A DNA stretch of 64,000 nt from positions 132,062,001 through 132,126,000 of the forward strand of contig CM059431.1 in NCBI GenBank assembly GCA_030390025.1, in the 5' to 3' direction. Within the stretch, counting starts at the first letter, position 1; each line of letters opens with the position of its first letter. Below the pieces are notes generated by a model, which worked only from the letters and a program-made list of their open reading frames with translations, did no database searches and was not told the DNA's origin. Source of the stretch: Squalus acanthias (taxonomy: Eukaryota). Below are positions 8,707 through 60,992 of the stretch, piece after piece. A program made the position numbers and the translations under genes.

Positions 8707-9449
8707 GGCCCAGAAATTTGACTTGGAGGCTTGCCGCGGAGGTAAGGATCACGCGCGATCTTACCTACCGCGCCTGCCGTTGTGTTTCGGGCCCACACGA
8801 ACTTCGTGTCCCAGGCCTGTCCCTGGTGCCGGCGTGCAGTGTGTGCGTGTCCCAGAGGCGCAGTTAGTTCGATGCGACCTCTGGGATCATGTGGGACATG
8901 GAGAGCCAATGGCAGCACACCATCTTTCATTCATAGATTTGACAGGAGAACTGTCAAAACTATGAATACAAATTGCCCCCAAAAGAACAGCTAAACCTCA
9001 AATAAATTTAAAAAAAACCATCACATTAATAAAATAACTATAGTTAAATAAATTAACCACTTTAAACAAAAATTTAAATTTTTGAAAATTTTTAAATTCT
9101 TTTTAAAAGTTATAAAAATAAACTTACCTTTCTTTAAAGTCTGTAAAAATTTTTAAATAATACTTAATTAACTACTTACCTTGTTAAAAGGGGGTCTTAC
9201 GCCTCCTTTTTTCATGTGTAAAATCTTCCATACTTACCTTCGCGTTGAAACCTGAAAAAAAACCTAAGTGCACTGCGTGCGCACAGCCTGTAGTGCGTAC
9301 GCGGTTCACCTAGGAACCGCCCCCTTCGCCATATCGGAAGTGCCGGTTTCCCGCGCATGCGCAGTGCATGCAGGAAACCGGCACTTCAGGACCGAATACG
9401 CGAGAGTACACAGTTCGTACTCTCCCGTATTCAGCCGAATTTTTGGGCC
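8707..9449 (-). mobile_element. Harbinger-type MITE family M1, copy 1
   Basis: TIR GGCCCA(G/A)AAATT, TSD ATT/ATT. Highly similar to the reverse complement of 27500-28264 and 35747-36510. Confidence 0.92.
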
Positions 9450-14115: not shown

Positions 14116-14160
<45 letters not shown>

Positions 14161-14251
14161 TGATCAGCAGCAGCACGAAGGTGGGAGGGAGGTCCACAAT
14201 GTTGCCACTGCAAGGGCCGTCCGTCAACGACTGATAACAAGCCGCTTCTAG
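13086..14251 (+). pseudogene. Harbinger (HARBI1-like) DDE transposase, nearly intact; 1-nt frameshift near 14093 before the acidic tail
   Basis: Motifs GAIDCTQV, NRKGYHSLNVQ, YPGSSHD, WLLGDKGY, IIEQTIGVLKQRFRCL and CCMLHN. The poly-Glu tail ending RQRLITSRF* is in the shifted frame 14048-14251. Confidence 0.93.
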
Positions 14252-14697
14252 GCCCCTGCTCAGAAGATGGCTTCTGGCATGGAGAACAACATCATGGAAA
14301 GCAACCTGCACCCCCTATAGCCGGCCAAAGCTGCAATGATTCCAAAGGCCAAACATATAAATTTTGAATACAACAACTTTTTTATTTAACAAACTCTGTG
14401 TGTGTCATTTATTCAGGGCAAACAAATAGAAACAAACACAACAAATCATGAATTTACAGAACTGGTTCTCACAAGCTGGAGACAAACAACAAAACAGTAA
14501 ACAAATGTTATCAGACGAACCTCGACCTTTACTACAAACATTCCCACCATTTATTTAGACCTCCTACTTTTTGCCCTTCGAGGGTGATCTCCATCCCCGC
14601 GCACTTCCCCCCCTTCCCACCCTATTGCTCCTCTGTAATGGGGCCCCAGTGGCTGCAACAAGGCTGGTGGAAGGCTGCTGAATGTCAGATGCTGAGA

Positions 14698-16311: not shown

Positions 16312-16777
16312 TCTTCTTTGCAGCAGAATTCAAGTTCAGGTCTGTCCAGACCGAGATTCAAAGCTGCAATGAGCAGGGTGTGACTGGAGAGCAAGATCAA
16401 CCCTCCCCTTTAAGAACTGGCCGGCGCCAGTGTGTCTTGTGTTCCATTGCTAACTGACATCACCTGAGCTTCGCCAGCGCTCTGAGGTAGCGCCTCGCTC
16501 CTCGGCGTTAGCGCCTTAAGAGAGGCGCGTAGCGCCTGATTTAGCGCTCCAATCACCTCCAGGGGTGATAGAAGCCAAGTTTGCAGTCAGAGGCGATAAT
16601 TAGCGCCAGCGCTAAACTTTGCGCCCGGCCGATAATTGCGCCCCAAACTGGACGATACCGAATTTCTCCCCCAATAACTTTTCATAACTAACCTCCCCCA
16701 CCCCCAGTGACGCACTCACTCTTTAAACCTGGATATTCAAAAATGTAAACAGAAATAAACAAACGGATGTCAGTTAA

Positions 16778-19829: not shown

Positions 19830-20734
19830 GGGCCAGAATTTACTGTAGCAGGGCATCGAACGGCATTTGCCATTAGTGAGGCTTGACCAATCAGATTGAT
19901 GGATAGTGAAATTAAGCACAAGGACTGAGAAGAAAGTGTAAATTAGAATGGGTGAATTCAATGTCAAATCAGGTACAGAAAGAGAATAAAAGTTTGGCAG
20001 TAATTAACACGTCATTAAAAGGGTACTTAGACTGGAATGGACAAGACTTAACGTTAAGTTTGTATCTACCACCCAAAGACAGCAACTTCACGCCATTCAA
20101 TGCATCAATGGTGAGGTAGACAGTGAGATGCTGGTGAGGTAGACAGTGAGATGCTGGTGAGGTAGACAGTGAGATGCTGGTGAGGTAGACAGTGAGATGC
20201 TGGTGAGGTAGACAGTGAGATGCTGGTGAGGTAGACAGTGAGACGCTGGTGAGGTAGACAGTGAGATGCCGGTGAGGTAGACAGTGAGATGCCGGTGAGG
20301 TAGACAGTGAGATGCTGGTGAGGTAGACAGTGAGATGCCGGTGAGGTAGACAGTGAGATGCTGGTGAGGTAGACAGTGAGATGCTGGTGAGGTAGACAGT
20401 GAGATGCCGGTGAGGTAGACAGTGAGATGCTGGTGAGGTAGACAGTGAGATGCTGGTGAGGTAGACAGTGAGATGCTGGTGAGGTAGACAGTGAGATGCC
20501 GGTGAGGTAGACAGTGAGATGCCGGTGAGGTAGACAGTGAGATGCCGGTGAGGTAGACAGTGAGATGCCGTTTTCGCGAAGCTAACAGTGGAGCGGCACA
20601 ACTCAGACAGCAACTTTTGCATATTTGAGTTTAACCACGCATCTGCCCCTCACCTTAAGTTGCTGTACCATTTGTGCATAAATAACGGCGAGTGCCATTA
20701 GCCTCACCGTTATTTTAATTGGGAAATCTGGGCC
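19830..20734. mobile_element. Harbinger-type non-autonomous element containing a minisatellite
   Basis: Imperfect TIRs GGGCCAGAATTT / GGCCCAGATTT, flanks TAT/AAT. 19830-19990 matches the reverse complement of 61790-62082. Confidence 0.7.
20110..20569. repeat. Minisatellite, 23-bp unit GGTGAGGTAGACAGTGAGATGC(T/C) x20
   Basis: Direct tandem copies with no spacers. Confidence 0.97.
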
Positions 20735-20972: not shown

Positions 20973-22974
20973 GACACAGCCTGGCAATGGATAAATTCCA
21001 TCCAGCATCTATTGAACTTTTGTCTATTGTTAGCACAGCTAGGAATATTGTTTTATTAAATTTAAATAATTGTACAGACAAAGGTTTTCAGACATACCCT
21101 CCAGCTATGTCTGCTGAACTCAACTGACAAGATGAGTAGAAGATGCCCTTGAATATCTTACTCATCTCTGCCAAAGTCAATTTGTGACCAGCCAGCAGGA
21201 ATGCTAAAATGAAACCTTTGCCAGCTTTCCTCCCACCTGATACCTTGCCTCCTCATAATGGAGAGCCTCACAACCCAGAAATGATTAATAGCTCTGCATC
21301 TGGGGGAAGTCCATGTGTGAGTGTCAGCCAAAGCTGCCTTTGAACCTGAGTCTCCTCATTCACATTACCATTATGCCATTAGAATGCTAGACATGCTTCT
21401 TTAAAGTGAGGACTCGTACTAAATGGCTAACGTTGGGTAATGTTCAACCAGTTGCAAGTAATAGGTTCTTGTTATAATTACAGTATTCCAAGGTTTTAAA
21501 TCCTGGACACATAACTTTAATTTTATTTTCAGATTTATGGTGGACTCATTCCCCAAACTTAATGAACTGTTCACGAATGATATCACAGGTTAACGGGATA
21601 TTGGTGCTGGTGGCTAATTAGCCCAGCGCTAAACATACCGTACAATGCCATTTTCATGGTTGTTGTCCCAGCAGGAGGCCCAGTGTTGCATGGCAAGCGA
21701 GGCTGTCATTTCCGAAAGCAGTGCGGTCCCTTAAAGGGGACCTGCCTTCCAAAATGAAAAAAATAAAAATCATGTAAAAATAGCCAGTTTTTAGCCCTTA
21801 GCGCTCAATTGCCTCTGAAAAAAAATTACGTTAAAAAGAATTCCCAAATGATAGTCTTCAGCTCTTAAAGCTGAATTCCCTTCCGCACCTTAAAAAATGG
21901 GAAAAGTGCTTCAGCACTAACACAAACGCAAGCCAGGGAAGGGGCACTCAGGGTCCCACAGGCAGCACTCCAGCTTTGTGCAGGGGGTCAACACTGCAAG
22001 AGAGGTCCTTTACCCACAGGGGCCAGGAGGCCCTCCAGAAAGAAGGATGTGGGACCAGATCACCAAGGCCGTCACTGCAGCAGTCTCATCGCCACGATCT
22101 GGCTCCAGTGCCCAAAGAAGCTTCATGACCTCAGACTAGTGGTCAAGGTCAGTGAATGCATCTTTAAAAGCCGTCTCCTACCAACTGCACCACTGGCCTC
22201 ACACACTACTCAATGCACGACTCCCCCTCCCAATCACTTACCTACCAAAAATCTGTACCAAACATGAGGCACACTTCCCATTCATAGTTTCACCTCCCCC
22301 CCTTGGAGGTGACGGTGCTGGCCATTCTTGCCCAGCGGTGGGGCTGACAGGATAAAAGATGCTGGTATCCTCATACATTATCCTCCTTCTGGCATGCACC
22401 TCTTGCTTTCCCACCCTCCCCTCACCACAACTCCACCCTTGCGCCTTCCTCATTTCACACACCCAAGAAATGCAGCCTGCCCAGCCAGTGGGTGACCAAG
22501 AAGAGGGAAAGGAGAGTGAAGAAGAAGAAGAAGAAGAAACACCATCACTCGATTTCACACTCCCAGCCACCAGCTCCTCAAGGTCGACCAGCAGGGCCAT
22601 TTGTAGTGTCCCCCACTGAAAGTCGGCAGCCTTCCACCAGCCATACTGCAGCCACTGGGGTAGCACTGCATGACATCAGTAAGATAGGCAAAGGCACACA
22701 AAAAACACACAAAAACGAAGGGAATGCATAAGGTTGATTTCTTGATGTCATATTGGATAGATAGATGTTTAAAGTTGGATTGGAAAGTTTGCTTTGTGGT
22801 GGCTTTTATTTCAGCATTGTGGCCAAGTGGACGCTGTGATGGTCAGTAACTGAGGGAAGGTTAATGTGTGGAACAAATCTTGAAAGGGGAATTGAGGTTG
22901 TGGTCACTGGTACCTCAGGCGGATGATTCCATCCCAGATATCCTGGTCAGAAAGGGGCTGTCTGGGTTGCCTCC

Positions 22975-23335
22975 TTCCTTCTGCTTCCTCCTCTTCTGCT
23001 TCCTCCTCTTCTGCTTCTTCCTCTTATACTTTCTCCTCTTCTGCTTCTTCCTCTTATACTTCCTCCTCTTATACTTCCTCCTCTTCTGCTTCTTCCTCTT
23101 ATACTTCCTCCTCTTCTGCTTCCTCCTCTTCTGCTTCTTCCTCTTATACTTTCTCCTCTTCTGCTTCTTCCTCTTATACTTCCTCCTCTTATACTTCCTC
23201 CTCTTCTGCTTCTTCCTCTTATACTTCCTCCACTTCTGCTTCCTCCTCTTCTGCTTCCTCCTCTTCTGCTTCCTCCTCTTCTGCTTCTTCCTCTTCTGCA
23301 TTTTCTTCTTATTCATCTTTCTCTTCCCTCTTCCT
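22975..23335. repeat. Compound 15-bp tandem repeat (CTTCCTCCTCTTCTG / CTTCTTCCTCTTATA)
   Basis: Directly visible, with a higher-order period of about 120 bp. Confidence 0.92.
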
Positions 23336-25964: not shown

Positions 25965-27499
25965 ATTTTCTGTCTTTTCAGAGGCTTTCCTTTACCATCC
26001 GAGGCCTGGCAAGTGTCCAGCAGCACTCTCTGCACTCCCTGCACACTTTAAAAATGTTTAACATATAATGCAGCAAGCCACTACTTCAATAAAATATTTA
26101 AAAATCCAGTCCAAAAGCTTAAATGCAAAGTTACCTGAAAGATGTGTGTGTCCCTTTAAGAAGTACTGACAGCATCTGTGTCAATCTGCAGCACACTCAC
26201 TTTTCATGGCGAGCTTAGGACCCAGCGCTAAACTCAGTGCAAAGGTCCAAGTTCGCAGAGTGTGACGTTAAGTCGGCATTGCACGCCAACTGACGTCACG
26301 CTCTCCATATTTTCATGTCCAGGGCCAGTGCTGCTATCGGCAGCGCTAAGGCCCTCACCAAAATGGCGGCATTGAGTCCCGCGCCAGAGGCGGGCGTTAG
26401 AGCGGTGGCCGCCATTTTTTTCCAGGATTGCAGTGCAAACGGGTGGCAGTAAGTAGCTCAATTTCTGGGCCATAGCCTATTCTGACATACATTTAAAATT
26501 GAAGCATGTATTTAATTAGATTTGAAAACTATGCCACTGTTGCTGATCTAGTAGTCATAGGTAACATTCAGCAAACGTTAACCACTCTAAATCTTATCCA
26601 TACCCACACTATTCACTGAGACACTATCAAATAGAGTAGTTAGACGCTAAATTGGTCCATGTAGCACCCGTGTTCTAGGTGCTACAGGGCCACATAAGGA
26701 GCGAAAATGGGGTCCAAGATGCACGTGCACAGTTCCAACGGGAAGTACCCAGGACACCATGTTGAAGGGGTTTGCGAGCATGACACCAGCAAAATGTAGA
26801 GCAGAGCGATGACAGCGCATGTCAGTGTGCAACGTTGGTTTGACGCCAGAGCTGCCATTTCGAACTCCACTCTCCAGCCAATGCCCTGTCTTAACATTGC
26901 ACAGCTGAACACGATGTTAAATGGAATGAAGGACCCCCCACCAGCACTATTTAATGGAATCATGAAGTACTTACACATTAGTTGCTGGATTATTTCTTCT
27001 GGCTGCTGGTGCAATTGTACGCATCTTTAGAGCTTTCCTATACTTTGCTAAAGTTTGAATAGTCTACAGGGAGTGGTCTGGCTGGTCTTGAACTACTGTT
27101 TTAGTCATTTTAAATCTTGCGCTGAAACAAGTTGCTTCCAGACATGGTTGGGCTGGTCGGGTTTCCTCTGGGAATTGAACATTTCTGGGAGAATTAAGAG
27201 AGGCCACGCAGAGCAGGACAAGCTGCGAGAAGAGGGAGGACGGGAGAAGGGCACTCAGCTGGAGGCCATATCCGCCGAGGGTCTTTAGGGAGCAATTCTC
27301 TTACCTCAACTTCAGCGAGGACCAGTGCCTGAGATGTCTCCACTTCACAAAAAAGGTTACGAGTGAAATCTGCCAAAGGCATCTGGCCAAAATATAGCCT
27401 CAAAGCAGGGTAAGGACATTATTGCCTGTGGCTGTCAAGGTGTCCGTGACTCTTAGCTTTTATGCATCTGGCTCCTTTCAGGCTACTGCTGGAGATAAT

Positions 27500-28264
27500 G
27501 GCCCAAAAATTCGGCCCTTCCCGCGTGGGTACACAGTGTGTACTCACCCGTATTGCTTCCCGAAGTGCCGGTTTCCTGCATGCACTGCGCATGTGCGGGA
27601 AACCGGAACTTCCGGTATGGTGAAGGGGGCGGTTCCTAGGTGAACCGCGCGCGCGCTAGAGGCTGCGCGCACGCAGCACACTTAGATTTTTTTTCAGGTT
27701 TCTACGCGAGGGTAAGTATTGAAGATACTACGCTAATAAAAAGGAGGCGTAAGACCCCTTTTGAACAAGGTAAGTGGTTAATTAAGTATAATTTAAAATT
27801 TTTTTCAACAGGTTTATCTTTTTTAGATACTTTAAAGAAAGGTAAGTTTATTTTTATAACTTTTAAAAAGTATTTTAATTTTTTCAAAAATTTAAATTTT
27901 TGTTTAAAGTGGTTAATTTATTTAACTATAGTTATTTTATTAATGTGATGGTTTTTAAAAAAAATTTATTTGAGGTTTAGCTGTTCTTTTGGGGCCGATT
28001 TCAATTCACAGATTTGACAGGTCTCCTGTCAAATCTATGAATGAAAGATGGTCTGCTGCCATTGGCTCTCCATGGCCCATGTGATCCCAGGGGTCGCATC
28101 GCACTAACTGCGCCCCTGGAACACGCAAGCACTGCGCGCCGGCAGTTGGGAGAGGCCCAGGACCCGAAGTTCCCGTGGGCCCAAAACACAACGGCAGGCG
28201 CGGTAGGTAAGAGCGCGCGCGATCCTTACCCCGGCGGCAAGCCGGACACGCGAATTTCTGGGCC
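27500..28264 (+). mobile_element. Harbinger-type MITE family M1, copy 2
   Basis: TIR GGCCCA(A/G)AAATTCG, TSD AAT/AAT. Inserted in a transposase pseudogene. Confidence 0.93.
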
Positions 28265-28625: not shown

Positions 28626-29439
28626 TATGTGCAATGGCTCATGACTCCGGTCCAGAACCCACGTACACGTGCACAACAGGCTTACAGTGAGAGCCATGCT
28701 CCCACAAGAAATATTATACAGCACACCATCTGCCTCATCAAGCAATGCTTCCATTGCCTGAACTGCTCTGGAGGAGCCATGCAGTACTTGGCTGAGCAGG
28801 TATTGAGATTTATGTTAGTATGCTGTATGCTGAACAACCTGGCCATTATGAGGGAACAGCCCTTGCCACCACCTATCAGGCAAGAAGCTCAGAAGCACGG
28901 GGTGGAAGAGGAGGTGGAAGTGGAGGAGGAGAAGGTGGAAGTGCAATAGGAAATGGAGGAATAGGAAGAGGAAGAGAGGATGCAACGTGATCAGAATATT
29001 CATGAGCGATACCAGTAACCTCAAAAATACCTCCCCATTCACCAACAGTCCCATGCTCCTTACTTTTCCTCTATTACTGACCATCACATTGTCCTCTTTC
29101 CGGCAAAATAAAAGCCACCAGAAAATGCACATTCCAATCCAATTTTATAAATTCACTCATTACATAATGCATACAAAATTAAACTAATCACCCTTGTGCA
29201 TTCCCTTTGTGCCTGTCTTCCTTTGCCTGTCCTTGTGCTCCTATGAGGTGCTTCCCCCATAGCTGCAGCATGGGTGGTGGAAGGCTGCTGTCCTTCAATT
29301 GAGGAGACTGCAGATGGCCTTGGAGGATGACCTAGAGGGCCTGGCTTCAGACTGCACCATGTTGGGATGTAGAGCGAGATTTTCTGCCCATTCAGACTCA
29401 GTTGGCAGAAAATCTAGCTCATAGCTCCATCATCACTGC

Positions 29440-35746: not shown

Positions 35747-36510
35747 GGCCCAAAAATTCGGCCGTTCTCGGGTGAGTATGGACTGTATACTCACCCGTAT
35801 TCATTCCCGAAGTGCCGGTTCCCTGCATGCACTGCGCATGCGCGGGAAACCGGCACTTCCGGTATGGCGAAGGGGGCGGTTCCTAGGTGAACTGCGTGCG
35901 CACTAGAGGCTGCGCGCACGCAGCACACTTAGGTTTTTTTCAGGTTTCAACGCGAGGGTAAGTATGGAAGATTCTACACAAGTAAAAAGGAGGCGTAAGA
36001 CCCCTTTTTGAACAAGGTAAGTAGTTAATTAAGTATAATTTTAAATTTTTTTCAACAGGTTTATCTTTTTTAGAGACTTTAAAGAAAGGTAAGTTTATTT
36101 TTATAACTTTTAAAAGTATTTTAATATTTTCAAAAATTTAAATTTTTGTTTAAAGTGGTTAATTTATTTAACTATAGTTATTTTATTAATGTGATGGTTT
36201 TTTAAAAAAATTATTTGAGGTTTAACTGTTCTTTTGGGGCCAATTTTAATTCACAGATTTGACAGGTCTCCTGTCAAATCTATGAATGAAAGATGGTCTG
36301 CTGCCATTGGCTCTCCATGGCCCACGTGATCCCAGGGGTCGCATCGCACTAACTGCGCCCCTGGAACACGCAAGCACTGTGCGCCGGCTCTTGGGAGAGG
36401 CCCAGGACCCGAAGTTCCTGTGGGCCCGAAACACAACGGCAGGCGCGGTGGGTAAGAGCCGCGCGCGATCCTTACCCCCGCGGCAAGCCGGCCACCCGAA
36501 TTTCTAGGCC
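35747..36510 (+). mobile_element. Harbinger-type MITE family M1, copy 3
   Basis: Same TIRs and internal sequence as 27500-28264. No intact TSD (AAT/TCT). Confidence 0.92.
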
Positions 36511-41797: not shown

Positions 41798-42940
41798 TTA
41801 ATCTACATTTGGACTCTCTACACTTTCAGATTGTTTGTCTGCCTGACTCACACTCAGACTTAAATTCTGACTTTGTCTTGGACTTGTTTCTGGTACGTCT
41901 GATGTAGGATTTGCTACTGGTACTCTACTTGTAACAAGACTATCTGACTCATCAGAATAAATTGAATCATCCCAGCTTTTAACTCTTTCCACATCTGTAG
42001 GTAAGATGTGATCAATGTGAACAAACCTAACCTTTCCATGATCAAACATCTTGACCAAATATGTGCGAGGGCCACATATCTTCACTACTCTTCCTGGTAA
42101 CCACTTTAACCATTTATGGTGATGATTCTTCACTCTAACCTTCTGGTTCAACTTCACACTTTTCTCTCTAACTCTACCTTTATCATGACTCTCTTTCTGC
42201 CTTGATTGTTTCTCTTCTACGGACTGTGCCATGTTTGGCTTTAACAACGAGAACCTGGTTCGTGGCTGTTTGAGAAACAACTCTGCTGGTTTTCTACCAG
42301 TAGCGGTATGAGGAGTATTCCGATAGGTAATGAGAAAATTTGCCAGTTTGTGGTCCAATGACAACTGATGTTTCTTTGGATTTGGATCCAACATTTGCTT
42401 GATGAGGGCACGTTTGACAATTTGTACTGTGTGCTCTGCTGCACCATTTGAAGCAGGGTGGTACGGTGGAACTTTGGTATGTTTCACACCGTTTCTGCTC
42501 ATGAACTGTGTGAACACTTCTGAACAAAATTGCGGCCCATTATCAGACACAATTTCTTCTGGGAGGCCATATGAAGAAAACAATCTTCGCAAATTGTCTA
42601 GTGTTTTGCTTGTTGTTATTATCCGCATCGGAAACACCTCTACCCACTTCGAGTGACTATCTATCACTATGAACAATTGCTGTCCTTCTAGCTCAGCAAA
42701 ATCTACATGTAACCTTTGCCACACTCTGGGAGGCCATTTCCATGGCTGTAATGGTACTGATGGTGGTTTCTTGCTCACCGATTGACATGTTGTACACTGA
42801 CTGACTATGTACTCTATTTCTTTATCTAAACCTGGCCACCATAAGTAACTGCATGCAAAGCTCTTGGTCAAGCACGTTCCCAGGTGCTGGTCATGAAGAT
42901 CTCCTAACAATTTAGACCTGAACCTATTTGGGATAACCAC
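41798..42940 (-). pseudogene. Gypsy integrase open segment (380 aa) of a disrupted pol
   Basis: H2C2 zinc finger plus D,D(35)E core. Upstream pol is broken by stops and frameshifts. Confidence 0.9.
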
Positions 42941-43493
42941 TCTTGCTCACCACGTGATACAATCTTTATCCACTGGCAATTCATTCCTACAAACGAAGTA
43001 TGGATGGATATCTTCCTCTGATACCTGGTTTGGCTGTCCATTTGCAATGTAATCATACACCTTTGACATAATTGGGTCACGTTTGGTTGCCCAACCAATC
43101 TCTTCAGCTGTGACTGGCAGCTCATCAATGTATGAGAAATAGAACCCGTCTTCCCTATTGGGTGTAACTTGTGATGGGGATGGCAACCTGGACATAGCAT
43201 CAGCATTACTGTGATCAGCTGATCTTCTGTACTTCTGTACTCAATGTCATACGTATACGCTGACAAAATCAAAGCCCATCTCGGCATTCAGACTGCAGCT
43301 AAGGTTGGAACTGGAGACTTTCAATCTGCGCATAATTCTGCTCACTGACACTGAGAGTGCGTGAAGCAAAAGCAATTGGTCTCTCCTCCCCACTATCTAG
43401 TACATGAGAGATCACTGCCCCAACTCCGTACGGAGAGGCGTCACACGCTAGCTTGATCTCCTTAGATACATCATAGTGAACTAACATGGTACT

Positions 43494-45698: not shown

Positions 45699-46436
45699 GG
45701 GCTGGATTTTGTCTTGGGGTCGGGTTGGGGTCGTGTCATCCGCATTTCGTGTTCCCCCCCGACTCCAGATTAATGTGGATGAATGATGCAATTTTCACTT
45801 AATTGGGCAATTGAGTTCCAGCATGTGGGAACCCATGAACTAATTAGTAGTTTCAGTCTGAAAGTCACCTCTGATGATGTCATCATTGCTGCTGCATTGC
45901 AGGTCAGAGACTGACTGGATGTTGGTGAGAGAGGACCTGCCTGGCTTTTGCTGAGAGTGGACCTGGATGCGAGAGAGAGAGAGAGAGAGAATGATTTTGC
46001 ATCCAAGTCCTCTCACACAGCAAAGGCCATGCAGTTCAGCAGCATCAGAGGCGACTTTCAGACCCAATACTACTACCACCTTCATCACATCTCCGTTGTA
46101 ATAGTGGACCTGCAGCTGATAGTCAGCTATCCACTTGTGCTCCCGCCAGGTTTCACTGGAGTGTTTCACATCAGGTGTACTTCACGTCGGAAAAGGGTTA
46201 AACTAGCTAAAGCGTTTCAAAATGGCATTACAGAGCCAATTTAGGGCTTGTTAAGGGCTTTAATGGCCTCTCCCGCCTCTTGGAGGCGGGATGGAGTCGG
46301 GAACCCCGCGACTGATTTTGTCAAAATTGCGTGGAGGCGGGATAGAGTCGGGATGGGGTCGGGACCCACGACCCCGCAAATTTAACCCCCCACACGCCTC
46401 CAAACCCGACTCCATGGGTCATTCAAAATCCAGCCC
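45699..46436. mobile_element. Harbinger-type MITE (738 bp)
   Basis: Perfect 13-bp TIR GGGCTGGATTTTG, TSD TCT/TCT. Right end resembles 34640-34743. Confidence 0.9.
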
Positions 46437-47054
46437 TCTCTTTCTCTCTTTAGGGAGGGCAGTCTAGATCAGTGACACAGAGATCTCACTCTCTCAGACA
46501 CAGAGGCTGAGAAACTCCAGGCTGAAGTATGAATAGATATAGCATGCAAGAGAAAAGGTTAGTGCCAGTTACTTCAGGGGCTGCTAATCCTGTAAATGAG
46601 TTTAGGCTATAACAGAGGCAAAGTTTCATACTTAAAGTATGAGGGTAGGTAGCACATAGATATATATTACTGGGAAACTAATTTCTGTTCATTCATATAT
46701 TCTATGTAAAATAAACCAGCTTGTTGGTTTATATTCTTGCCTCATCTCACTAGAGTGCGTTTAAGTTCGCCTTCCGAAAAGACAGGAGAACGCACATGGC
46801 GGCGCATGCAAGATCATAGTATACAGTGCACACAATGAGAGGTTCATGGTTCCACTCCCTGGGTCACACTATTGTTTAATTAGATATTCGGCATTAAAAG
46901 TGTACTCCTGTATATAGAGGAAACAAGTGCTGCTGAGCCCAAGAGACTATCTACTGCAGACCCATGAAATTTGTAACAGCATTTGCTCTCCCTTTTCTCA
47001 CAGAACATTGGCTGATCCTCTTCTGTTAACAATTTACAGCACTTTCCTAGAAGT

Positions 47055-47742
47055 GTGGAATGATAGGAATTGCAGCACAGCAGGAAAGCATTCGGCCCTT
47101 TGTGCCGGTGCCGATGCTAACTTTTCGACTGGAGCTGTCTGCTTTAATTCTAATTCATTGTCCTCTGACCATATCCTTTTACATCCTTTCTTTTCAAATA
47201 CTTATTCAATTGCCTTTTAAATGATTTTATAATCTCTTGTGGTTAAAGCTTCCTATATTCTAATAATCTCCATGTGAAAAAAATCATGATCTCTTCTAAT
47301 TTCCCTTTTCATTTTTCCAGTGATAATCCTCACACTGTGCACTCTTTTTGCCAATTCACCAATCAGTGAAAACAACCTTTCACTATTTACCCTCTCATAA
47401 CCTTTCCTAATCTTCAAAACCCCTGTTAGATCCCTCAGTTAACCCTCTCTATTCCAGTGAACTCGCCCTTTTTTTGTTTTTTTCATAATTATAATCTCTC
47501 ATTTCTGTTATCATTTAAGTGAATTTCTGCTGTACCCTCTCCATTGCTATAATATCCTTCCTATAATGGAATGCCCAGAACTGCTTGGAATAGTCCCAGC
47601 TGTGGCCTAACTAATCCCTTGCATAGCTTATTTGTTTTTATATTCAACACTCCTATGTATAAACCCAGAATCGCATTTGCTTTTCGATGGCCTTTTCCAG
47701 CTGCAGTCTCACTTTTAAAGATCTATGTATCGACTCCTCCAG
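47055..47742 (-). mobile_element. Old CR1 3' fragment (continues at ~49178-49580)
   Basis: Reverse complement reads GGGCCGAATGC 3' UTR, LVRPQLGLF and RGDL..VLKI remnants. 49178-49580 has ADDT, VSQGS and VDF-type motifs. Confidence 0.7.
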
Positions 47743-47744
47743 CT

Positions 47745-48368
47745 AAAGAAAGAAAGAATGGCATGCATTTATACAGCAACATTTACATTCTCAGGATGTC
47801 TCAATTTGCTTCACCGCCTATGAATTTCTTTTAAAGTGTAATTACTGCTGTCATGCAGGCAAATACAGCACCCAATTTGCATACAGCAGGGTCCACTTGA
47901 TCTGCTTTGATGGTGGTGTTTGAAGGATAAATATTGGACACTGGAAGAACTCCCCTGATGTTTGAATAGTGCCTTGGGATCTTTTATGTCCAGCAATACA
48001 GGCAGATGGGGCCTCATTTTCATGTCTCATCCGAAAGACTACGAGGGTGAAATTGGACATGGACACGGACACAAAACAGGCAGTATCACTGTGGTTGCCC
48101 GTTATGCACCCCGCCCGATATTCAGTTCCACTGACTTCAATAGAACTGAATATCTTAGTCGTGTCACATAACGGGAGGCAAAAGCAATTACGTCTGTTTT
48201 TCGTCCCTGCCCATGTACAATTTCACCCCCAACTCTGACAATACAAAACCTCCTCACTATTGCACTGAAATGTCAGCCTAGATTGTAGGCTCAAGTCCTG
48301 AAGCCAGGTTTGAATCCACAATCTTCTGACTCAGAAGCAAAAGTTCTACCACTGAGCTAAGCAGACAC
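47745..48368 (-). mobile_element. tRNA-headed DeuSINE/SacSINE-like SINE, interrupted by a small MITE
   Basis: Reverse-complement head TAGCTCAGTGGTAG...GGATTCAAACC (A and B boxes), central GTCTTTCGGATGAGAC...AAAAGATCCCAAGGCACTATT core, and L2-like tail. Confidence 0.8.
48043..48230. mobile_element. Small Harbinger-type MITE (188 bp)
   Basis: TIR G(A/G)GGGTGAAATTG, flanks TAC/AAC. Interrupts the SINE core. Confidence 0.75.
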
Positions 48369-48424
48369 TTATAGATCACTCTGTTTCTGCACTCTTTTAA
48401 GAATGCCATTTCATATATACCTCC

Positions 48425-49177
48425 TTTTCTTTTCGTTCCTAGGATGTGGGCGTCGCTGGCAAGGCCAGCATTTATTGCCCATCCCTAATTGCCCTTGAGA
48501 TGGTGGTGGCGAGCCGCCTTCTTAAACTGTACTGTTAGGAAGGGAGTTCCAGCTTTTGGACCCAGTGATGATGAAGGAACGCCAATATATTTCCAAGTCA
48601 GGATGGTGCGTGACATGGAGGAGAACTTGGAGGCAATCATGTTCCCGTGCGCCTGCTGCCCTTGTCCCTCTAGGTGGTAGTGGTCGCAGGTTGGGAAGGT
48701 GCTGTCGAAGAAGCCTTGGCAAGTTGCTGCAGTCCATCTTGTAGATGGTACACACTGCAGCCACGGTGCGCTGGTCGGTGGTGGAGGGAGTGAATGTTTA
48801 AGGTGGTGGATGGGGTGCCAATCAAACGGGCTGCTTTGTCCTGGAAGATGTTGAGCTTCTTAAGTGTTGTTGGAGCTGCACTCACTCAGGCAAGTGGAGA
48901 GTATTCCATCACACTCCTTACTTGTGCCTTGAATATGGTGGAAAGGCTTTGGGGAGTTAGGAGGTGAGACACTCATTGCAGAATACCCAGCCTCTGACCT
49001 GCTCTTGTTGCCACAGTATTTAAGTGGCTGGTCCAGTAAAGTTTCTGGTCAATGGTGACCCCCAGGATGTTGCTGGTGGGGGATTCGGTAATGGTAATGC
49101 CATTGAATGTCATGGGGAGGTGGTTAGACTCTCGCTTGTTGAGATAGTCATTGCCTGGCACTTGTGTGGCGCAAATT
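48425..49177 (-). mobile_element. LINE family B 3' fragment
   Basis: Colinear with 31005-31780. Confidence 0.9.
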
Positions 49178-49585
49178 TGTCCAAAATGTACTACTTTACT
49201 TTTGTCCTCATTGACCTGCATCTGCCAGCTATCTGCCCACTCTGCTAAGTTATGTATGTTCTCTTGCAATCTCTTGCTTACAGTTTGTTATAGCCTCTAA
49301 TTTGTATCATCAGCAAACTTTAATATCATCCTCTTGTATCTTTGTCAAACTTATTGAAGAGGCCCCATCATAGATCCCTGGGACACACCACTATACACAT
49401 GTCGTCAATCTGCAAAACATGGATTTCTCCCTGCTTTTTGCTTTCTATCCTCTATCTATCACTTTATCTATTTGGCTACATCCCCTTCAATAACATGTGC
49501 TTTCATTTTTGTTGAAAATCTCTTACATAGCACCTTATTAAATGTCTCCTAAAATCCACGTATGCAATATCAACCATAGTCCTTT

Positions 49586-49831
49586 GCGGAGGCAGCGGAC
49601 CTAAAAGGGAGCGAGAGCGGAGCCTGAGGATATAAAGAGCGCGGTAGAGCGAGGCCCGAGAGCAAAGGCAGTGGACCTGAGAGGGAGTGAGAGTGGAGCC
49701 TGAGGATATAAAGGGCGCGGCAGAGAGAGGCCCGAGAGTGGAGGCAGCGGACCTGAGAGGGAGCGAGAGCGGAGCCTGAAGATATAAAGAGCGCGGCAGA
49801 GCGAGGCCCGAGAGCGGAGGCAGCGGACCTG
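49586..49831 (+). promoter_or_regulatory. 76-bp tandem monomers (x3.2) in the CR1 5' UTR, each with a TATA-like GATATAAAG
   Basis: Units start at 49586, 49662, 49738 and 49814. Followed by TGACGTCA (CRE), GGAAGT and ATTGG motifs. Promoter function is inferred. Confidence 0.65.
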
Positions 49832-50059
49832 ACAACAAAAATAAGGAATGACGTCACAGGAAAGCAGGGAAGTGATTGGTTGGTCAGTATTTCTCTCTTT
49901 ATCTTGGGCATTGGTTTAAATTACGAGCTGGGATTAAAAACTAAACGTTCAAAAAGAGGGAGCTGATTGGTGAGTATCTGGTAAGTGTTTTTACTTGGCT
50001 TTCTTAAAGTTTTTAAGTTTATTCCAGCTAGGTTAGTAAATTAGAGGTTAATTAGAGGT

Positions 50060-51006
50060 ATGGCAGGGCAGCTCACACCCGTGGAGTGCACATCCTGTGC
50101 CATGTGGGAAGTCCTGGACACCTCCCGTGGTCTGGACGACCACATGTGCGGGAAGTGTCGCCAGCTACAGCAGCTCGAGCACCGGGTTACAGAGCTTGAG
50201 CGGCGGCTGCAGTCAGTGCTGTGCATCCGCGAGGCTGAGAGCTACGTGGATAGCACGTTTCGGGAGGTGGTCACCCCGCAGCTTAAGAGTGTGCAGGCAG
50301 AGAGGGAATGGGTGAGCGTCAGACAGAAGAGGACCAAGCAGGTAGTGCAGGAGTCCCCTGAGCCCATCTTGCTCACCAACCAGTATTTGGTGCTGAGTAC
50401 TGGTGAGGGTGATGGTTCCTCTTGGGAGTGCAGCCAGAGCCAAGTCCACAGAACCATGGAAGGCTCAGCTGCACAGGCGGGGGGGAAGAGGAGAGGGAGA
50501 GCAATAGTGATAGGGGATTCAATAGTTAGGGGAGCAGACAGGCGTTTCTGCGGCCGCAAACGTGACTCCAGGATGGTATGTTGCCTCCTTGGTTCCAGGG
50601 TCAAGAATGTCACTGAATGGCTGCAGGGCATTCTGAGGGGGGAGAGTGAACAGCCAGAGGTCGTGGTCCATATCAGTACCAACGACATAGGTAGGAAGAG
50701 GGATGAGGTCCTGCAGGCAGAGTTTAGGGACCTAGGAAAGAGGTTAAAAAGCAAGACCTCAAAGGTAGTAATCTCCAGATTACTACCAGTGCCACGTGCT
50801 AGTGAGTACAGAAATAGGAAGATAGAGCAGATAGAGCGTGGCTGGAGAGATGGTGTAGGAGGGAGGGCTTTAGATTCCTGAGGAATTGGAACCGTTTCTG
50901 GGGGAGGTGGGATCTCTACAAGCCAGACGGGTTGCACCTCAACGGGAACGGGACCAATATCCTCGCGGGAGGGTTTGCTAGTGCTGTTGGGGAGGGTTTA
51001 AACTAG
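50060..51006 (+). pseudogene. CR1 ORF1: Cys zinc finger/coiled coil plus SGNH esterase-like domain, frameshift near 50835
   Basis: CTSCAMW...CGKC, IVIGDSIVR and VVHISTND, then DGLHLN in the shifted frame ending TAG at 51004-51006. Confidence 0.9.
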
Positions 51007-51144
51007 CTTGGCAGGGGGATGGGAACCTAAGTATAGAGTCAATACAGAGGGAAGAAAAACTGGAATTGGAAAACAAAAACATAGAAAGTAAATTGGAAGG
51101 ACTGAGGAATCAAGGGCTAGATAGTAGTCAACAAGGAGGTTTGC

Positions 51145-53915
51145 CTGTACTAAATGGTATATACTTCAATGCAAGGAGTATAGCGAACAAGGCAGATGAG
51201 CTGAGGGCACAGCTAGATACTTGGGACTATGATATAGCTATTACAGAGACGTGGCTGAAAGAGGGGCAGGTATGGCAGCTCAACATTCCTGGTTACAGGA
51301 TTTTCAGACGGGACAGAGAGGGAGGTAAAAAGGGAGGGGGGGGTCGCGGTATTAATTAAAGAAACTATTACAGCTGTGAGGAGGGATGATATATTGGAGG
51401 GATCATCAAACGAGGCCATATGGGTCGAACTGAAAAACAAAAAAGGGGCGATCACACTGCTGGGACTGTATTACAGACCCCCAAACAGTGAGAGGGAGAT
51501 AGAAGAACAAATATTTGGACAAATTTCTGAGAAGTGCAAAAACTATAGGGCAGTAATAGTAGGGGATTTCAACTACCCCAATATTAACTGAGATAAAATT
51601 AGTATGAAGGGTATAGAGGGTGCGGAATTCCTAAAATGCATCCAGGAGAACTTTTTTAGCCAGTTTGTAGCAAGCCCAACAAGCGAGGGGGCGGTTCTGG
51701 ACTTAGTTTTAGGGAATGAAGTTGGGCAGGTAGAAGGCGTATCAGTGGGGGAGCATTTTGGTGCTAGTGACCATAATTCTGTTAGATTTAAGGTAGTTAT
51801 GGAAAAGGACAAGGATTGACCAGGAATAAAAATTCTAAATTGGGGAAAAGCAAATTTTGCTAAGCTCAGAGGGGATTTAGCCATAGTGGACTGGAAACAG
51901 CTACTTGAAGGTAAATCAGTGTCAGAGCAGTGGGAGGCATTCAAGGAGGAGATCCGGAGGGTTCAGACCAAATATGTGCCTTTAAAGAAAAAAGGTGGGA
52001 CTAACAGATCTAGAGCCCCCTGGATGTCTAGGGACATACAGGGTAGGATAAAGAAAAAAAGGGAGGCGTATAACAGATACCGAGGGCTAAATACTCCAGA
52101 ATCTTCAGAGGAGTACAGAAAGTGCAGGGGTGCAATTACAAAGGATATTAGGAAAGCAAAAGGAAAGAGAGAGCATGAAAAATTCTTGGCAAGTAAAATC
52201 AAGGAAAACCCAAAGATGTTTTATAAATATATTAAGAGTAAGAGGATAACTAAAGAAAGGGTAGGGCCTATTAGAGATCATGAGGGTAATCTGTGTGTGG
52301 AGGTGGGAGACGTCGGTAGGGTTCTTAATGAATACTTTGCGTCTGTTTTCACAAAGGAGAGGGGCGAAGCAGACATTGCTATCGGGGGGGAGGAGTGTGA
52401 AATATTAGATGAAATAAACATAGTGAGAGAGGAAGTATTAAGGGGTTTAGCAGCTTTAAAAGTGGATTAATCCCCAGGCCCGGATGAAATGTATCCCAGG
52501 CTGTTAAGCGAAGCAAAAGAGGAAATAGCAGAGGCCCTGACCATCATTTTCAATCCTCTCTGGCTTCAGGTGTGGTGCCGGAGGACTGGAGGACTGCTAA
52601 TGTGGTATCCTTGTTTAAAAAGGGAGAAAAGGATAGACCGAGTAATTACAGGCCAGTCAGCCTAACCTCAGTGGTGGAAAATTATTGGAAAGAAGTCTGA
52701 AGAACAGGATAAATCTTCATTTTGAAAGACACGGATTAATCAAGGATAGTCAGCACGGATTTGTTAAGGGAAGGTCGTGTCTGACAAACTTGATTGAATT
52801 TTTTGAGGAGGTAACAAGGAGGGTAGATGAGGGTAGTGCATTTGATGTTGTGTATATGGACTTTAGCAAGGCTTTTGATAAGGTTCCACATGGCAGACTG
52901 GTCACGAAGTTAAAAGCCCATGGGATCCAGGGCTAAGTGTCAAGTTGGATTCAAAACTGGCTCGGAGACAGGAAGCAGAGGGTAATGGTTGATGAGTGTT
53001 TTTGTGACTGGAAGGCTGTTTCCAGTGGGTTTCCGCAGGGCTCAGTACTGGGTCCCTTGCTTTTTGTGGTATATATCAATGATCTTGACTTGAATATAGG
53101 GGGTATGATTAAGAACTTTGCAGATGATACTAAAATCGGCTGTGTGGTTGATACTGAAGAAGGAAGCTGTAGACTGCAGGAAGATATCAATAAATTGGTC
53201 AGGTGGGCAGAACAGTGGCAAATGGAATTCAATCCGGAGAAGTGTGAGGTAATGCATTTGGGGAGGGCTAACAAGGAAAGGGAATACACATTAAATGGTA
53301 GGACACTGAGTAGTGTAGAGGAACAAAGGGACCTTGGAGTGCATGTCCACAGATCCCTGAAGGTAGCAGGCCAAGTTGATAAGATGGTTCAGAAGGCATA
53401 CGGAATGCTTGCCGTTATTAGCCGTGGCAAAGAATACAAGAGCAGGGGGGGTTATGCTTCAACTGTATAAAACACTAGTTAGGCCTCAGCTAGAGTACTG
53501 CGTGCAGTTCTGGTCACCACATTACAGAAAAGATGTGATTGTACTAGAGAGGGTACAGAGGAGATTTACAAGGATGTTGCCGGGAGTAGAGAATCTTAGC
53601 TATGAGGAAAGACTGGATAGACTGGGTCTGTTTTCCTTGGAACAGAGGAGGCTGAGGGGAGACCTTATTGAGGTGTATAAAATTATGACCTGTTTCCCTT
53701 AGCAGAGGGGTCACAGATTTAAAGCATTTGGTGGAAGGTTTAGAGGAGATTTGAGGGGAAATGTCTTCACCCAGAGGGTTGTGGGGGTCTGGAACTCACT
53801 GCCTGAAAGGGTGGTAGAGGCAGGAACCCTAACCACATTTAAAAAGTACTTGGATGTGCACTTGGGATGCTGTAACCTGCAGGGCTACGGACCAAGAGCT
53901 GGGAAGTGGGATTAG
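51145..53915 (+). pseudogene. CR1 ORF2 (AP endonuclease plus reverse transcriptase), multiple stops, frameshifts and deletions
   Basis: YFNARSIANK, ITETWL, YRPP, GDFN, SDH, QHGF, PQGS and FADD motifs across ORF pieces. Confidence 0.93.
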
Positions 53916-54422
53916 GCTGGATAGCTCTTTGTTGGCCGGCGCGGACTCAATGGGCCGAAATGGCCTCCTTCCGTGCTGTAACTTTCTATGATTCTATGAT
54001 TCTTGTTGATGCTTATTCTGAGTCTGCTGAATGATGCACTATCCACAGCCAAGCAAGAAAAAGGAAACCTTTTGGGGTGGGTGCAAAACAAATATTCTAT
54101 CATTTTAGTCATTTTCTAACATGCTGTGCTACCTAAACAGGCCTTTAAAAGCTATGTTTACTAAATATAGTCCTGCATTCTGATCTTGTACTCTATGCTG
54201 CATAGAGTATTGATCAGACTTAAAATTCAAAACATTGTTTTTATGTAAGACATTCTAAATTAGATGATCCCACCTGCAACTGAAGTTACCTGCAAGCTGT
54301 CTGCTGGGAATGGGTTGATGCTCTCTTTGCAGTGCCTTGCTATTCCCCCACCCCGCAAAAATATATATAAGCCAAGTTTTAAAGAGAAAAGGCTCATTTG
54401 TTTATTGAATGCCCCACATTGA

Positions 54423-56205
54423 GGCCGCAATTTCGCCAGCCGTGGCGAGTCCAGTGCGGCCGGAGCAGACAGCGGCCTCAAACTCCACACCCGTCTTCAT
54501 CCCGCCTCCTCCAAGTGATTTTGCCCTGATTTTACGATGATGGGGCTTGTCAAGCACGCCTTGCGAAGTTCCCGGCCAATTAAAAGGAAGCGGGTCTGAT
54601 GATATCATCTGATGACACATCACCAGCCGGTTTCCTTAAAGGGGCCATGTCCACATTTATTTTGACAGTTGTGCTGCCCGTGTTCTGCAGCATTGAGGTG
54701 CTGCAAACACTGACAAGCACTGCACAAAGGTGCACGGCTGCACCCAGGCTCTCCCATGACTCCCTACATATGCTTATGGAGGGAGTCACAGCACACAGGG
54801 AGGGTCTCTTCCCTTCCAATGGGCAGAAGACACCTCCCCAGGACACCAACGCAGCCTGGTTGCACATTGCACAGGAGGACACAAGCAGGGATGTCGTCAG
54901 GAGGACCAGGCTGCAGTGGCGCAAACCTTTCAATGATCTCAGTAGATCACGAAACGTTACTACAAAGCCACACTCAACCTCATCCTGCTGTGCCACTCAT
55001 CACGTCCCCATCACTCTGCCTTCCCTCCCCTACTCCTGCACATCTTTACTCACACCAACTTACCCTGCACCTCCACCCATCCCTCTCTATCTACATTATC
55101 ACTTCCCCATCTCACTAGCCACCCCTCACACTCACCCTCATCCTACTGCAAGCATACCAACTAAAAACACACAAGGGTAGGCACTTGAGAGGTTTAGCCA
55201 ATGTTCATGTGAAGTTTCTGGTAATGTGCTGTCAAACATTGAAATCTTTATTTTGAACACTTTGCGATCTTGGACAGATTTGTGTACACCTTTGGAAGTG
55301 GCTTAGTGAGTTGCAGTGAATGGTGAGACATAACATCCCCGTCCCCCCAGCCCGATGGTGATGAGTGTGAAAGGAATGGCTTGGACATTGTAGGGATGCT
55401 TTATGGTGCTGGTGGTGCCAACCTGCTGCATCATGTGGCAGCCAGGGTGTACAGCATTAAGTGAAGCAAATCTGGACATGGTGAGGCCATCGCTGGCGTC
55501 CCGGGCAGCAATGTGCACGGGTGATGATGCCCTGTGTCCTGTGCAGCATCAGTTGTTTACGGAGAAGGTTGGTGTGGATGTTGGTGCTGCTGGTGTGCCC
55601 GGTGATGCTGGTGTTGGGGCTGATCGTGTTGGAATTCTTAGAACCAAGGTGAGATTTTTTCAAGGGCACCGATGCTGATTGAATAGATGGCAGGTGAGGT
55701 TGAGGTGACAGAAGTAATCTGTTAATGTTGAGATAGGTTGTTCCAAGGAGGTGACAGTGAATAGAGAGAATACTCCAAACACTTCAAAAGTGCATAAAGC
55801 TCAAAAGTGGGTTCCAAATCATTAATGCTCCAGCTTCTGAGATTGGGAAGTGAACAGCTGTGAAATGGAAGGTTTTATACTATTTTTGCAGCTGTCACCT
55901 AATCACAGTAATCCAGTCATTGAGAACCTAATGTGATAGCCACTCTCCGGGAACCTCGTTGAAAACTTGGTAAAATGGTAAGTACATGGGAAAATGGTTC
56001 TTAACTACCTTTTAATAAGCTTTTAACTATCTAAATTGGCTCACCCGCCGCTTGGTGTCGGGTCTGTTCAGGGATGACAGACCTGACACTTGGGAAACTG
56101 ACGAGGCAGGTTGACAGCGGGATACTGACGCGCTGTCAATCTTTATGATTTTGACAGCAGACCCGCTTCCAAACCAGCACTCTGAGCGCCGGTAAAATTC
56201 CGGCC
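54423..56205 (+). mobile_element. Non-autonomous Harbinger element with a Myb/SANT remnant (~54720-54950)
   Basis: TIR GGCCG(C/G)AATTT, TSD TGA/TGA. Remnant reads APRLSHDSLHMLMEGV...AAWLHIAQE...RTRLQWRKPFNDL. Confidence 0.85.
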
Positions 56206-59069: not shown

Positions 59070-59164
59070 GATATGTCTAAATACTAACAGAAATAAATTA
59101 TTTTGGTGCCTTTGATGTCTTTCATCATGGTTTACATTTCTGCTTTGTATTTATTTAAACCCTT

Positions 59165-60716: not shown

Positions 60717-60992
60717 TAAAAGTTGAAAAATTAGCGCCAGGCATTAATCATTCTCGCCTCCCACGAAATTCAGTTTTAGCGCTGCAAGAGGGAAGTGCAG
60801 CGCTAAATCAAGTGCTAACTACTTCTATTAGGGCGCTAAAGTCCGAGAGCGGGGCAGTAGCGGCAGAGCGCTAAACAATTTCGAGCGCATTATAAACGGC
60901 ACTCTTTCATCACAGAGGCTAAATTATTTTTTTTAACTTTTCCTTTCTGTCTCTTTATTCTCCCTTAATCCAATCTTTCTTTCCCTCTCTTT

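What the first reader, a model, noticed from the sequence alone, without database searches (positions are those of the whole stretch)
35747..36510. Young MITE family (3 copies) built like a portable CpG-island promoter plus splice-donor cassette
Seen: three highly similar ~750-bp copies (8707-9449, 27500-28264, 35747-36510) have CpG-rich ends and an AT-rich core. The left end clusters TGCGCATGCGC, CACTTCCGG and GGGGCGG (35830-35882). Three strong donors follow (GG|GTAAGT 35958, AG|GTAAGT 36017, AG|GTAAGT 36089). Two of them are preceded by T-tract CAG acceptors that define 14-nt and 30-nt micro-exons. A perfect hairpin AGATTTGACAGG-TCT-CCTGTCAAATCT and an ATTGG lie near the other end. Established: these motifs match NRF1, ETS/GABP, Sp1, U1 snRNP and NF-Y consensus sites of vertebrate housekeeping promoters and first exons. 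Inference: the MITE may be an unmethylated, transcribed unit that seeds promoters or first exons, or traps splicing where it lands. Caveat: the 42-59 nt spacing between sites is short for real introns.
Basis: partly seen in the sequence, partly recalled or inferred. Interest (0 to 1): 0.72.

Follow-up and report, generated by a model that had tools for sequence, protein, structure and literature searches.

The report
Harbinger mini-transposon keeping three splice donors
This is a very abundant, gene-less cut-and-paste transposon whose promoter-like end is shared with a two-gene partner transposon; its three splice-donor signals stayed fixed in the lineage that kept jumping but decay like ordinary DNA once a copy has landed, so they likely serve the transposon itself rather than host genes.

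Summary
The three copies belong to a roughly 50,000-copy, 740-765 bp non-autonomous PIF/Harbinger element with 15-bp inverted ends and a 3-bp AWT target duplication. [quoted passage not shown] The NRF1-like palindrome and the first donor core are shared with the partner's transposase leader, whose own donor is spliced in one RNA run. Donors 2 and 3 and the GC box were in 0 of 38 partners.

The host-promoter reading is mostly unsupported. Landed copies show 4.3-fold CpG decay (other repeats 5.4-fold), the motifs decay at background rate, and four runs show no splice joint on the element. One thing stands: the donors changed once on internal branches against 12-18 expected (empirical p 0.003-0.014), but 29 times against 33 on tips. 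They are constrained only in the jumping lineage, for an untested reason.

Side findings: 25 of 88 AWT target duplications have a swapped middle base, and the element's ends look exchanged with partner subfamilies. The scan reported this family and all three patterns before on other copies in this genome.

The parts
35747..36510 (+). MITE copy 3 (764 bp, subfamily A); flanking triplets AAT / TCT do not match
27500..28264 (+). MITE copy 2 (765 bp); target duplication AAT/AAT; NRF1 palindrome broken
8707..9449 (-). MITE copy 1 (743 bp, subfamily B); 3-bp duplication confirmed by 12 of 12 distinct empty sites in the repeat it landed in; acceptor 2 deleted
35747..35761 (+). Left terminal inverted repeat, identical to that of autonomous element L061
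36496..36510 (-). Right terminal inverted repeat (13 of 15 bases match the left; identical to the right end of L061)
35769..35797 (.). Subterminal hairpin 1, also in autonomous left ends
35809..35859 (.). Subterminal hairpin 2, enclosing the NRF1-like palindrome (35834-35843); its 3' arm overlaps the ETS-like motif (35854-35862); shared with autonomous elements
35873..35879 (+). GC box; in 3 of 4 MITE subfamily majority sequences, 0 of 38 autonomous left ends
35957..35963 (+). Donor-like site 1 (G|GTAAGT); GTAAG core at the same place in 33 of 38 autonomous left ends
36016..36022 (+). Donor-like site 2; no change on internal branches; 0 of 38 autonomous left ends
36088..36094 (+). Donor-like site 3, inside a ~26-bp nearly invariant AT-rich block; 0 of 38 autonomous left ends
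35935..35943 (+). Acceptor-like site 1 (T tract plus CAG); a deletion removes its T tract and the CA in 7 of 16 diverged sequences
36044..36058 (+). Acceptor-like site 2, 101 nt after donor 1 and 42 nt after donor 2
36255..36310 (.). 12-bp hairpin and ATTGG; this part has no homologue in 7 + 30 autonomous right ends
36380..36510 (.). Right subterminal region homologous to autonomous right ends, with a GGTAAG/CTTACC hairpin at 36450-36477

Best explanation
It is a gene-less PIF/Harbinger transposon (MITE) that shares its inverted ends and promoter-like left end with a two-gene partner and is likely moved by that partner's transposase and Myb-like protein; its three splice-donor motifs are constrained only in the lineage that keeps jumping, so they likely help the element itself spread, while landed copies are likely methylated and decay. 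Shown: the ends, the 3-bp AWT duplication, the partner with both genes, homology of the first ~260 and last ~130 bp, splicing of the partner's Myb intron (three runs) and leader intron (one contig), constraint on internal branches only, and CpG decay. Inferred: mobilisation in trans, and that the left end is the transposase promoter and first exon (no start site mapped). Least certain: why the donors are kept. I favour U1 snRNP binding to leaky transcripts from the inherited promoter in the rare copies that go on to jump, keeping them accessible (about 0.4), over a DNA-level protein or nucleosome signal (about 0.35) or a slowly mutating block (about 0.25).
For: L061:705-5423 has the MITE's ends letter for letter, with PF13873 Myb (E 4e-13); the intact transposase of sister element L062 has PF13359 (E 2e-43). 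30 of 40 elements with an empty site show a 3-base overlap. A MITE profile matches 7 of 7 autonomous left ends (E 1e-47 or better), and the donor-1 segment alone matches 6 of 7 at E below 1e-4. A contig in run X6 joins the partner's AG|GTAAGT donor to the acceptor just before the transposase ATG, a 392-nt GT-AG intron. Donors on a 127-copy tree: 1 internal change against 12.2-18.2 expected; 29 tip changes against 32.8-33.9. CpG transitions 243 of 9167 against 173 of 28253 at other C/G; control repeats 29 of 592 against 69 of 7638. For the U1 reading: the three donors lie downstream of and on the same strand as the promoter-like end, and the subfamily-level variants keep A or C at -3 and GTAAG throughout (splice consensus recalled).
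Against: No direct parent was found for positions ~260-630: identity to partners there is at shuffle level and profile hits are not significant. No transposition assay exists. Against the U1 step: no joint on the MITE; only 10 of 38 partners keep a strong donor at their own site and 5 of 38 at site 1, so donors are not required to jump; in human cells it is the intron body, not the 5' splice site, that protects from HUSH silencing (PMC8770142 passages). The motif was picked after being seen, the tree ignores recombination, and donor 3 sits in a wider invariant block. ATTGG and the GC box had few tip changes (1 against 8, p 0.003; 8 against 15-18, p 0.008-0.03, uncorrected), which does not fit purely neutral decay.
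Confidence: 0.6

Rival explanations
1. Portable host promoter or splice trap: landed copies stay unmethylated, start transcripts and splice into host exons.
For: The motifs are real and non-random. The homologous partner leader is transcribed and spliced. ATTGG shows 0 of 570 private changes (p 0.017, uncorrected). A Harbinger-superfamily MITE is enriched at liver open-chromatin sites in Xenopus (PMC12676858 abstract).
Against: CpG decay matches other repeats. NRF1, ETS, GC box and donors decay at or above background in 114 copies. No GT-AG joint in 4 runs. Two of the three window copies have already lost a motif.
Confidence: 0.1
2. The GGTAAG motifs are DNA-level cis signals (binding sites for the Myb-like protein or a host factor, or nucleosome-positioning DNA) that raise transposition rate; the likeness to splice donors comes from ancestry or coincidence.
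For: Same constraint pattern. GGTAAG also occurs on both strands in the right-end hairpin, and a GTAAG 36 bases from the right end is kept in 5 of 7 partners. Internal 20-bp blocks raise or lower mPing transposition in yeast (PMC9921582 section 6).
Against: 0 of 38 autonomous elements carry sites 2 or 3. A DNA-binding site need not track the splice consensus or the strand of the promoter.
Confidence: 0.2
3. The donors are functionless relics of an extinct parent's leader, in a slowly mutating AT-rich block; their constancy is chance plus selection of the motif after seeing it.
For: Positions 250-450 are the best-kept part of the element (0.92-0.95). 8-15% of all 7-mers have no internal change. 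A/T sites have few transitions (0.2%).
Against: Three random 7-mers do as well in only 0.25-1.4% of draws, and donor 1 is an invariant island among variable sites.
Confidence: 0.1

Closest known systems
Non-autonomous PIF/Harbinger elements (Tourist-like MITEs), e.g. rice mPing with Ping/Pong (PMC4561436 passages; PMC9921582 abstract and section 6)
   Same: Short non-coding element, short inverted ends, 3-bp duplication with A or T in the middle, partner with DDE transposase and Myb-like gene; internal sequence can affect mobility.
   Different: AWT target rather than TTA/TAA; vertebrate-type promoter motifs and three donor sites; the middle has no matching partner, whereas the ends track different partner subfamilies.
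Fish Harbinger transposons, including zebrafish Harbinger3_DR (PMC9179366 passages and Introduction; the primary paper PMC2290759 was not held)
   Same: Two ORFs, DDE transposase and Myb/SANT protein; 3-bp duplication; transcribed.
   Different: That survey found no Harbinger in elephant shark and asked for other cartilaginous fish to be checked; here PF13359 gives 63,886 first-look candidates. Sequence kinship to named families was not tested.
Pangu group of the PHIS superfamily (PMC4482050 passages)
   Same: ANT target duplication; ends start with GG.
   Different: Pangu's second ORF has no known motif and no vertebrate host is listed; here the second ORF is a clear Myb/SANT protein.
Harbinger MITE domesticated as liver enhancers in Xenopus tropicalis (PMC12676858 abstract only)
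   Same: Vertebrate Harbinger MITE rich in transcription-factor motifs.
   Different: Shown there with ATAC data at a subset of copies; nothing comparable was testable here.
piggyBac excision with flank-derived overhangs (PMC7351741 passages; Li et al. 2013 seen only as a title in its reference list)
   Same: Model for the mismatched duplications: the excised element carries donor bases on its ends.
   Different: Different superfamily, 4-nt TTAA overhang; shown biochemically there, only inferred here.

Membership tests
PIF/Harbinger non-autonomous element (MITE) | Short terminal inverted repeats starting with A or G | tested here: met
   15 bp, 13 of 15 matching, start GG; criterion from PMC4482050
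PIF/Harbinger non-autonomous element (MITE) | 3-bp target site duplication | tested here: met
   30 of 40 elements with empty sites (143 examined) show modal overlap 3; triplets identical in 74 of 137
PIF/Harbinger non-autonomous element (MITE) | TWA duplication typical of the PIF/Harbinger group in the strict sense (TTA/TAA for mPing; TWA recalled) | tested here: not met
   The target is AWT within a palindromic A.AY-AWT-RT.T preference. This lowers placement in the strict TWA group, not in the superfamily.
PIF/Harbinger non-autonomous element (MITE) | Partner with the same ends encoding a DDE transposase and a Myb/SANT protein | tested here: met
   L061 and six sister elements of 4.5-4.8 kb; PF13359 and PF13873
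PIF/Harbinger non-autonomous element (MITE) | Small, uniform size and high copy number | tested here: met
   725-765 bp; 5 near-full copies in 400 kb of spread stretches and 7 in 464 kb around the window
PIF/Harbinger non-autonomous element (MITE) | Mobilised in trans by the partner's two proteins | not testable with these tools
   Needs a cell assay
PIF/Harbinger non-autonomous element (MITE) | Partner transposase falls in the PIF/Harbinger clade of a PHIS tree | not tested
   No tree with named references was built
Pangu (PHIS) | ANT duplication | tested here: met
   AWT is a subset
Pangu (PHIS) | Second ORF without a known motif | tested here: not met
   Myb_DNA-bind_5 at 49.5 bits, cut-off 21.7
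Unmethylated CpG-island promoter | GC above 50% and CpG o/e above 0.6 over 200 bp (criterion recalled) | tested here: met
   Both ends
Unmethylated CpG-island promoter | Protection from germline methylation | tested here: not met
   CpG transition excess 4.3-fold in 114 copies against 5.4-fold in control repeats; indirect, no bisulfite data
Unmethylated CpG-island promoter | Transcription start within the element | not testable with these tools
   Only contigs were offered; they show no starts or strand
Functional splice cassette | GT-AG joints at the named sites | tested here: inconclusive
   None among 3 joints in 4 runs; contigs drop rare forms and only 24 of 224 loose ends were shown

The most novel reading that the evidence does not exclude
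A gene-less DNA transposon has gained extra perfect U1 sites behind a borrowed promoter and is selected to keep them, because being transcribed and bound by U1 snRNP keeps a copy fit to jump: an RNA-level requirement in a cut-and-paste parasite, which also renews its ends from whichever autonomous subfamily is active.
Probability: 0.25. Interest if true: 0.7.

Novelty: new member of a known kind. Interest (0 to 1): 0.33.

Why it matters
As a Harbinger MITE it is ordinary. Three features could matter to transposon specialists. First, splice-donor motifs under constraint only in the jumping lineage raise a testable question about what non-coding DNA parasites need internally. Second, 28% of AWT duplications carry a foreign middle base, which is what the mPing excision model (5' overhangs made from the duplication, PMC4561436) would leave if the element inserts with donor bases attached; it also means duplication mismatch cannot be used to date these elements. 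Third, Harbingers are very abundant in this genome, whereas a fish survey found none in elephant shark. With ~50,000 copies carrying promoter motifs and strong donors, a few co-opted copies are plausible, but none is shown. The scan has logged all of this before in the same genome.

Tried and rejected
Search for the direct parent of the MITE middle: 30 transposase loci, 20 longer stretches and 30 Myb loci gave no match to positions ~260-630. The one hit (L259) was a neighbouring MITE piece.

A multiple alignment suggested colinearity with the partner's leader out to 500 bp. I dropped this beyond ~260 because identity (53-70%) was near the block-shuffled baseline (mean 50-56%, maximum 61-64%) and segment profiles were not significant.

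A 2-bp AT duplication (ISL2EU-like) was rejected by the empty sites. Pangu membership was rejected by the Myb ORF.

Rfam gave 4 weak hits, all well under their gathering scores.

Runs: no RNA holder was listed on record. X2, X4 and X6 are taken as RNA because they hold the partner's spliced Myb intron, which X10 does not. X1 was laid only on the MITE.

Two further CpG controls were uninformative: transposase ORF 6 of 1450 against 19 of 11125 (2.4-fold, few events); autonomous left end 26 of 796 against 40 of 1697 (1.4-fold, but with high background from mixed subfamilies, so not read as low methylation).

Escape from HUSH as the reason for the donors is weakened by PMC8770142.

Orientation bias in introns was not tested, since there is no gene annotation. 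A look-up of earlier notes by sequence returned nothing.

Literature searches listed no paper on this family or on mismatched Harbinger insertion duplications. Only listings were seen for most hits, subscription journals and Repbase/Dfam are not covered, and no supplements were read, so absence from print is not established.

Full report
Observation. Three GGTAAGT on one strand did not occur in 2000 dinucleotide shuffles. Only copy 3 has the complete set. The promoter-like motifs are parts of hairpins: the NRF1-like palindrome and the ETS-like site lie in and on hairpin 35809-35859, and the whole strand folds at z = -8.0.

Abundance and age. The genome is 3.7 Gb. A search with copy 3 gave 6643 first-look candidates, and the 40 scored were 93-100% alike. 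Near-full copies numbered 5 in 400 kb of evenly chosen stretches and 7 in the 464 kb around the window, which extrapolates to roughly 46,000-56,000; with 5 hits the range is wide. Four query types each gave 30 loci. After dropping 6 copies with shared flanks, 114 copies were 2.1-3.6% from their subfamily majority sequence. These are the closest copies by design, so this understates age. Sixteen representative sequences were 67-99% alike. The flanking repeats look shark-like to me (recall; earlier notes use the same word).

Identity. The element has 15-bp inverted ends and an AWT duplication within a palindromic target preference. Of 143 elements, 40 had a paralogous empty site, and 30 of those had a modal 3-base overlap. 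PF13359 gave 63,886 first-look candidates. L061:705-5423 carries the MITE's ends letter for letter, a transposase gene on + (frameshifted in this copy, intact in sisters such as L062) and a convergent Myb/SANT gene. This is the two-ORF layout of Harbinger elements (PMC9179366). The ANT target is shared with Pangu, but Pangu's second ORF lacks a known motif (PMC4482050).

Origin of the promoter and donors. A MITE profile matches all 7 autonomous left ends tested. Segment 196-300 alone matches 6 of 7 at E below 1e-4 (L061 at 0.035); segments 261-500 and 501-660 do not match. Of 41 autonomous left ends, 38 had the palindrome core. Among those 38, 33 have GTAAG at the donor-1 position (5 with the full GGTAAGT), 7 the ETS motif, 10 a strong donor of their own near position 370, and none has donor 2, donor 3 or the GC box. 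Laid on L061, runs X2, X4 and X6 hold a joint across the Myb gene's 530-nt GT-AG intron and X10 does not. One X6 contig (depth 8.6) joins the donor at L061 1072 to the acceptor at 1463 just before the transposase ATG, and long contigs in X4 and X6 begin at 1461. So the left end likely is a transposase promoter with a non-coding first exon, and the MITE lineage holds two donors that sampled partners lack.

Are landed copies active? Private CpG transitions ran at 243 of 9167 (2.65%) against 173 of 28253 (0.61%) at other C/G sites, 4.3-fold. Control repeats gave 5.4-fold (29 of 592 against 69 of 7638; 4 of 20 flank queries had enough homologues). This points to ordinary germline methylation. Non-CpG decay in NRF1 (5 of 570), ETS (1 of 420) and GC box (4 of 450) matched background (612 of 74101); GTAAGT was slightly higher (27 of 2180, p 0.04); ATTGG was lower (0 of 570, p 0.017, uncorrected). 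Four runs laid on copy 3 gave 3 joints, none GT-AG. Contigs drop rare forms, so this is a weak negative.

What is constrained. On a tree of 127 copies (positions 121-660, parsimony), the 21 donor bases changed once on internal branches against 12.2-18.2 expected by base class, and three random 7-mers did as well in 0.25-1.4% of draws. On tips they changed 29 times against 32.8-33.9. The two acceptor CAGs had 0 internal changes against about 2.3 each (p about 0.1). On tips ATTGG (1 against 8) and the GC box (8 against 15-18) were low, uncorrected. Selection thus seems to act on the element's ability to spread, not through the host. Caveats: the motif was chosen after being seen, recombination is ignored, and donor 3 lies in a wider invariant block.

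Mechanism. Shown: ends, target, partner, homology of the ends, partner splicing, the constraint pattern. Inferred: the partner's proteins cut and paste the MITE, and copies are then methylated and decay. For the donors I favour U1 binding to leaky transcripts from the inherited promoter in the few copies that go on to jump, because they are co-oriented with it and vary only where a splice donor tolerates change. A DNA-level signal is nearly as likely: internal blocks tune mPing mobility (PMC9921582), most partners lack strong donors, and HUSH protection does not depend on the 5' splice site (PMC8770142).

Side finding 1, overwritten duplications. Of 137 elements, 88 have AAT or ATT on both sides and 25 of those differ in the middle base. 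Decay would give about 1% (A/T transversions 0.46% per site). In 8 of 9 such cases with a 3-base empty site, one side equals the empty site and the other is foreign (6 left, 2 right). The mPing model has excision leaving 5' overhangs made from the duplication (PMC4561436); if the element keeps the complementary overhang, as piggyBac does (PMC7351741), independent repair at the two junctions would give about 25% asymmetry (my inference). But in all 8 cases the foreign triplet is also the mirror of the native one, so copying between the two ends is not excluded, and L029 has a 10-bp mirrored flank.

Side finding 2, exchanged ends. Over the first 60 bp, subfamily A is 92% alike to partner L061, C 92% to L063 and D 98% to L070 and L078, against 65-87% among MITE subfamilies. 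Over 201-500 the MITEs are 65-98% alike to each other and 51-70% to partners. This suggests an old body with ends renewed from current partners. No recombination test was run.

Novelty. It is a new member of a known kind. The scan has notes on the same family in this genome, including the donor constraint, the overwritten duplications and the swapped ends. Those are unreviewed AI notes, not independent support; my counts come from my own calls. Papers seen: PMC4482050, PMC4561436, PMC7351741 and PMC8770142 as passages; PMC9179366 as passages and Introduction; PMC9921582 as abstract and section 6; PMC12676858 as abstract only; PMC2290759 not held. Interest 0.33.

Noticed in passing
window 12582-16675: A second Harbinger family: 4.1-kb element with GGGGGAAAAATTCGG-type ends, AAT flanks and a 393-codon open transposase frame (13053-14231, about 52% alike to the partner family).
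   Followed up: partly
window 58177-59070: A ~900-bp internal deletion derivative of that second family (86-89% alike to both of its ends), GAT flanks.
   Followed up: partly
window 27281-27496 and 28635-28847: MITE copy 2 sits inside a broken Harbinger transposase gene: tblastn hits lie on both sides of it.
   Followed up: no
window 59800-61800: GC- and CpG-rich stretch (o/e 0.6-1.0) with many GCGC palindromes and ends like those of other Harbinger-type MITEs; probably two or three adjacent elements.
   Followed up: no
L029 and L150 (G000:C3 near 120.656-120.662 Mb): At least four MITE copies of different subfamilies inserted at the same site of successive units of a tandem repeat; one has a 10-bp mirrored flank.
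   Followed up: partly
L061:4290-4487: A very high-copy palindromic repeat (contig depth about 100,000) inserted in the Myb gene's intron.
   Followed up: no
L044, L045, L058, L068: 2.8-3.2 kb partner derivatives with an intact transposase frame but much of the Myb side deleted.
   Followed up: partly
L032:1-210; L259:194-477: Autonomous elements landed in or beside MITE copies of the same family.
   Followed up: no
window 36255-36281 across subfamilies: The hairpin arms change in matched pairs between subfamilies (GAC/GTC to CAC/GTG); hairpin 1 does likewise.
   Followed up: no
window 20109-20570, 22970-23335, 49588-49832: Tandem arrays with periods of about 23, 60-75 and 76 bp.
   Followed up: no
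window 41801-42946 (minus): 382-codon open frame resembling an LTR-retrotransposon integrase region (recall); observed only.
   Followed up: no
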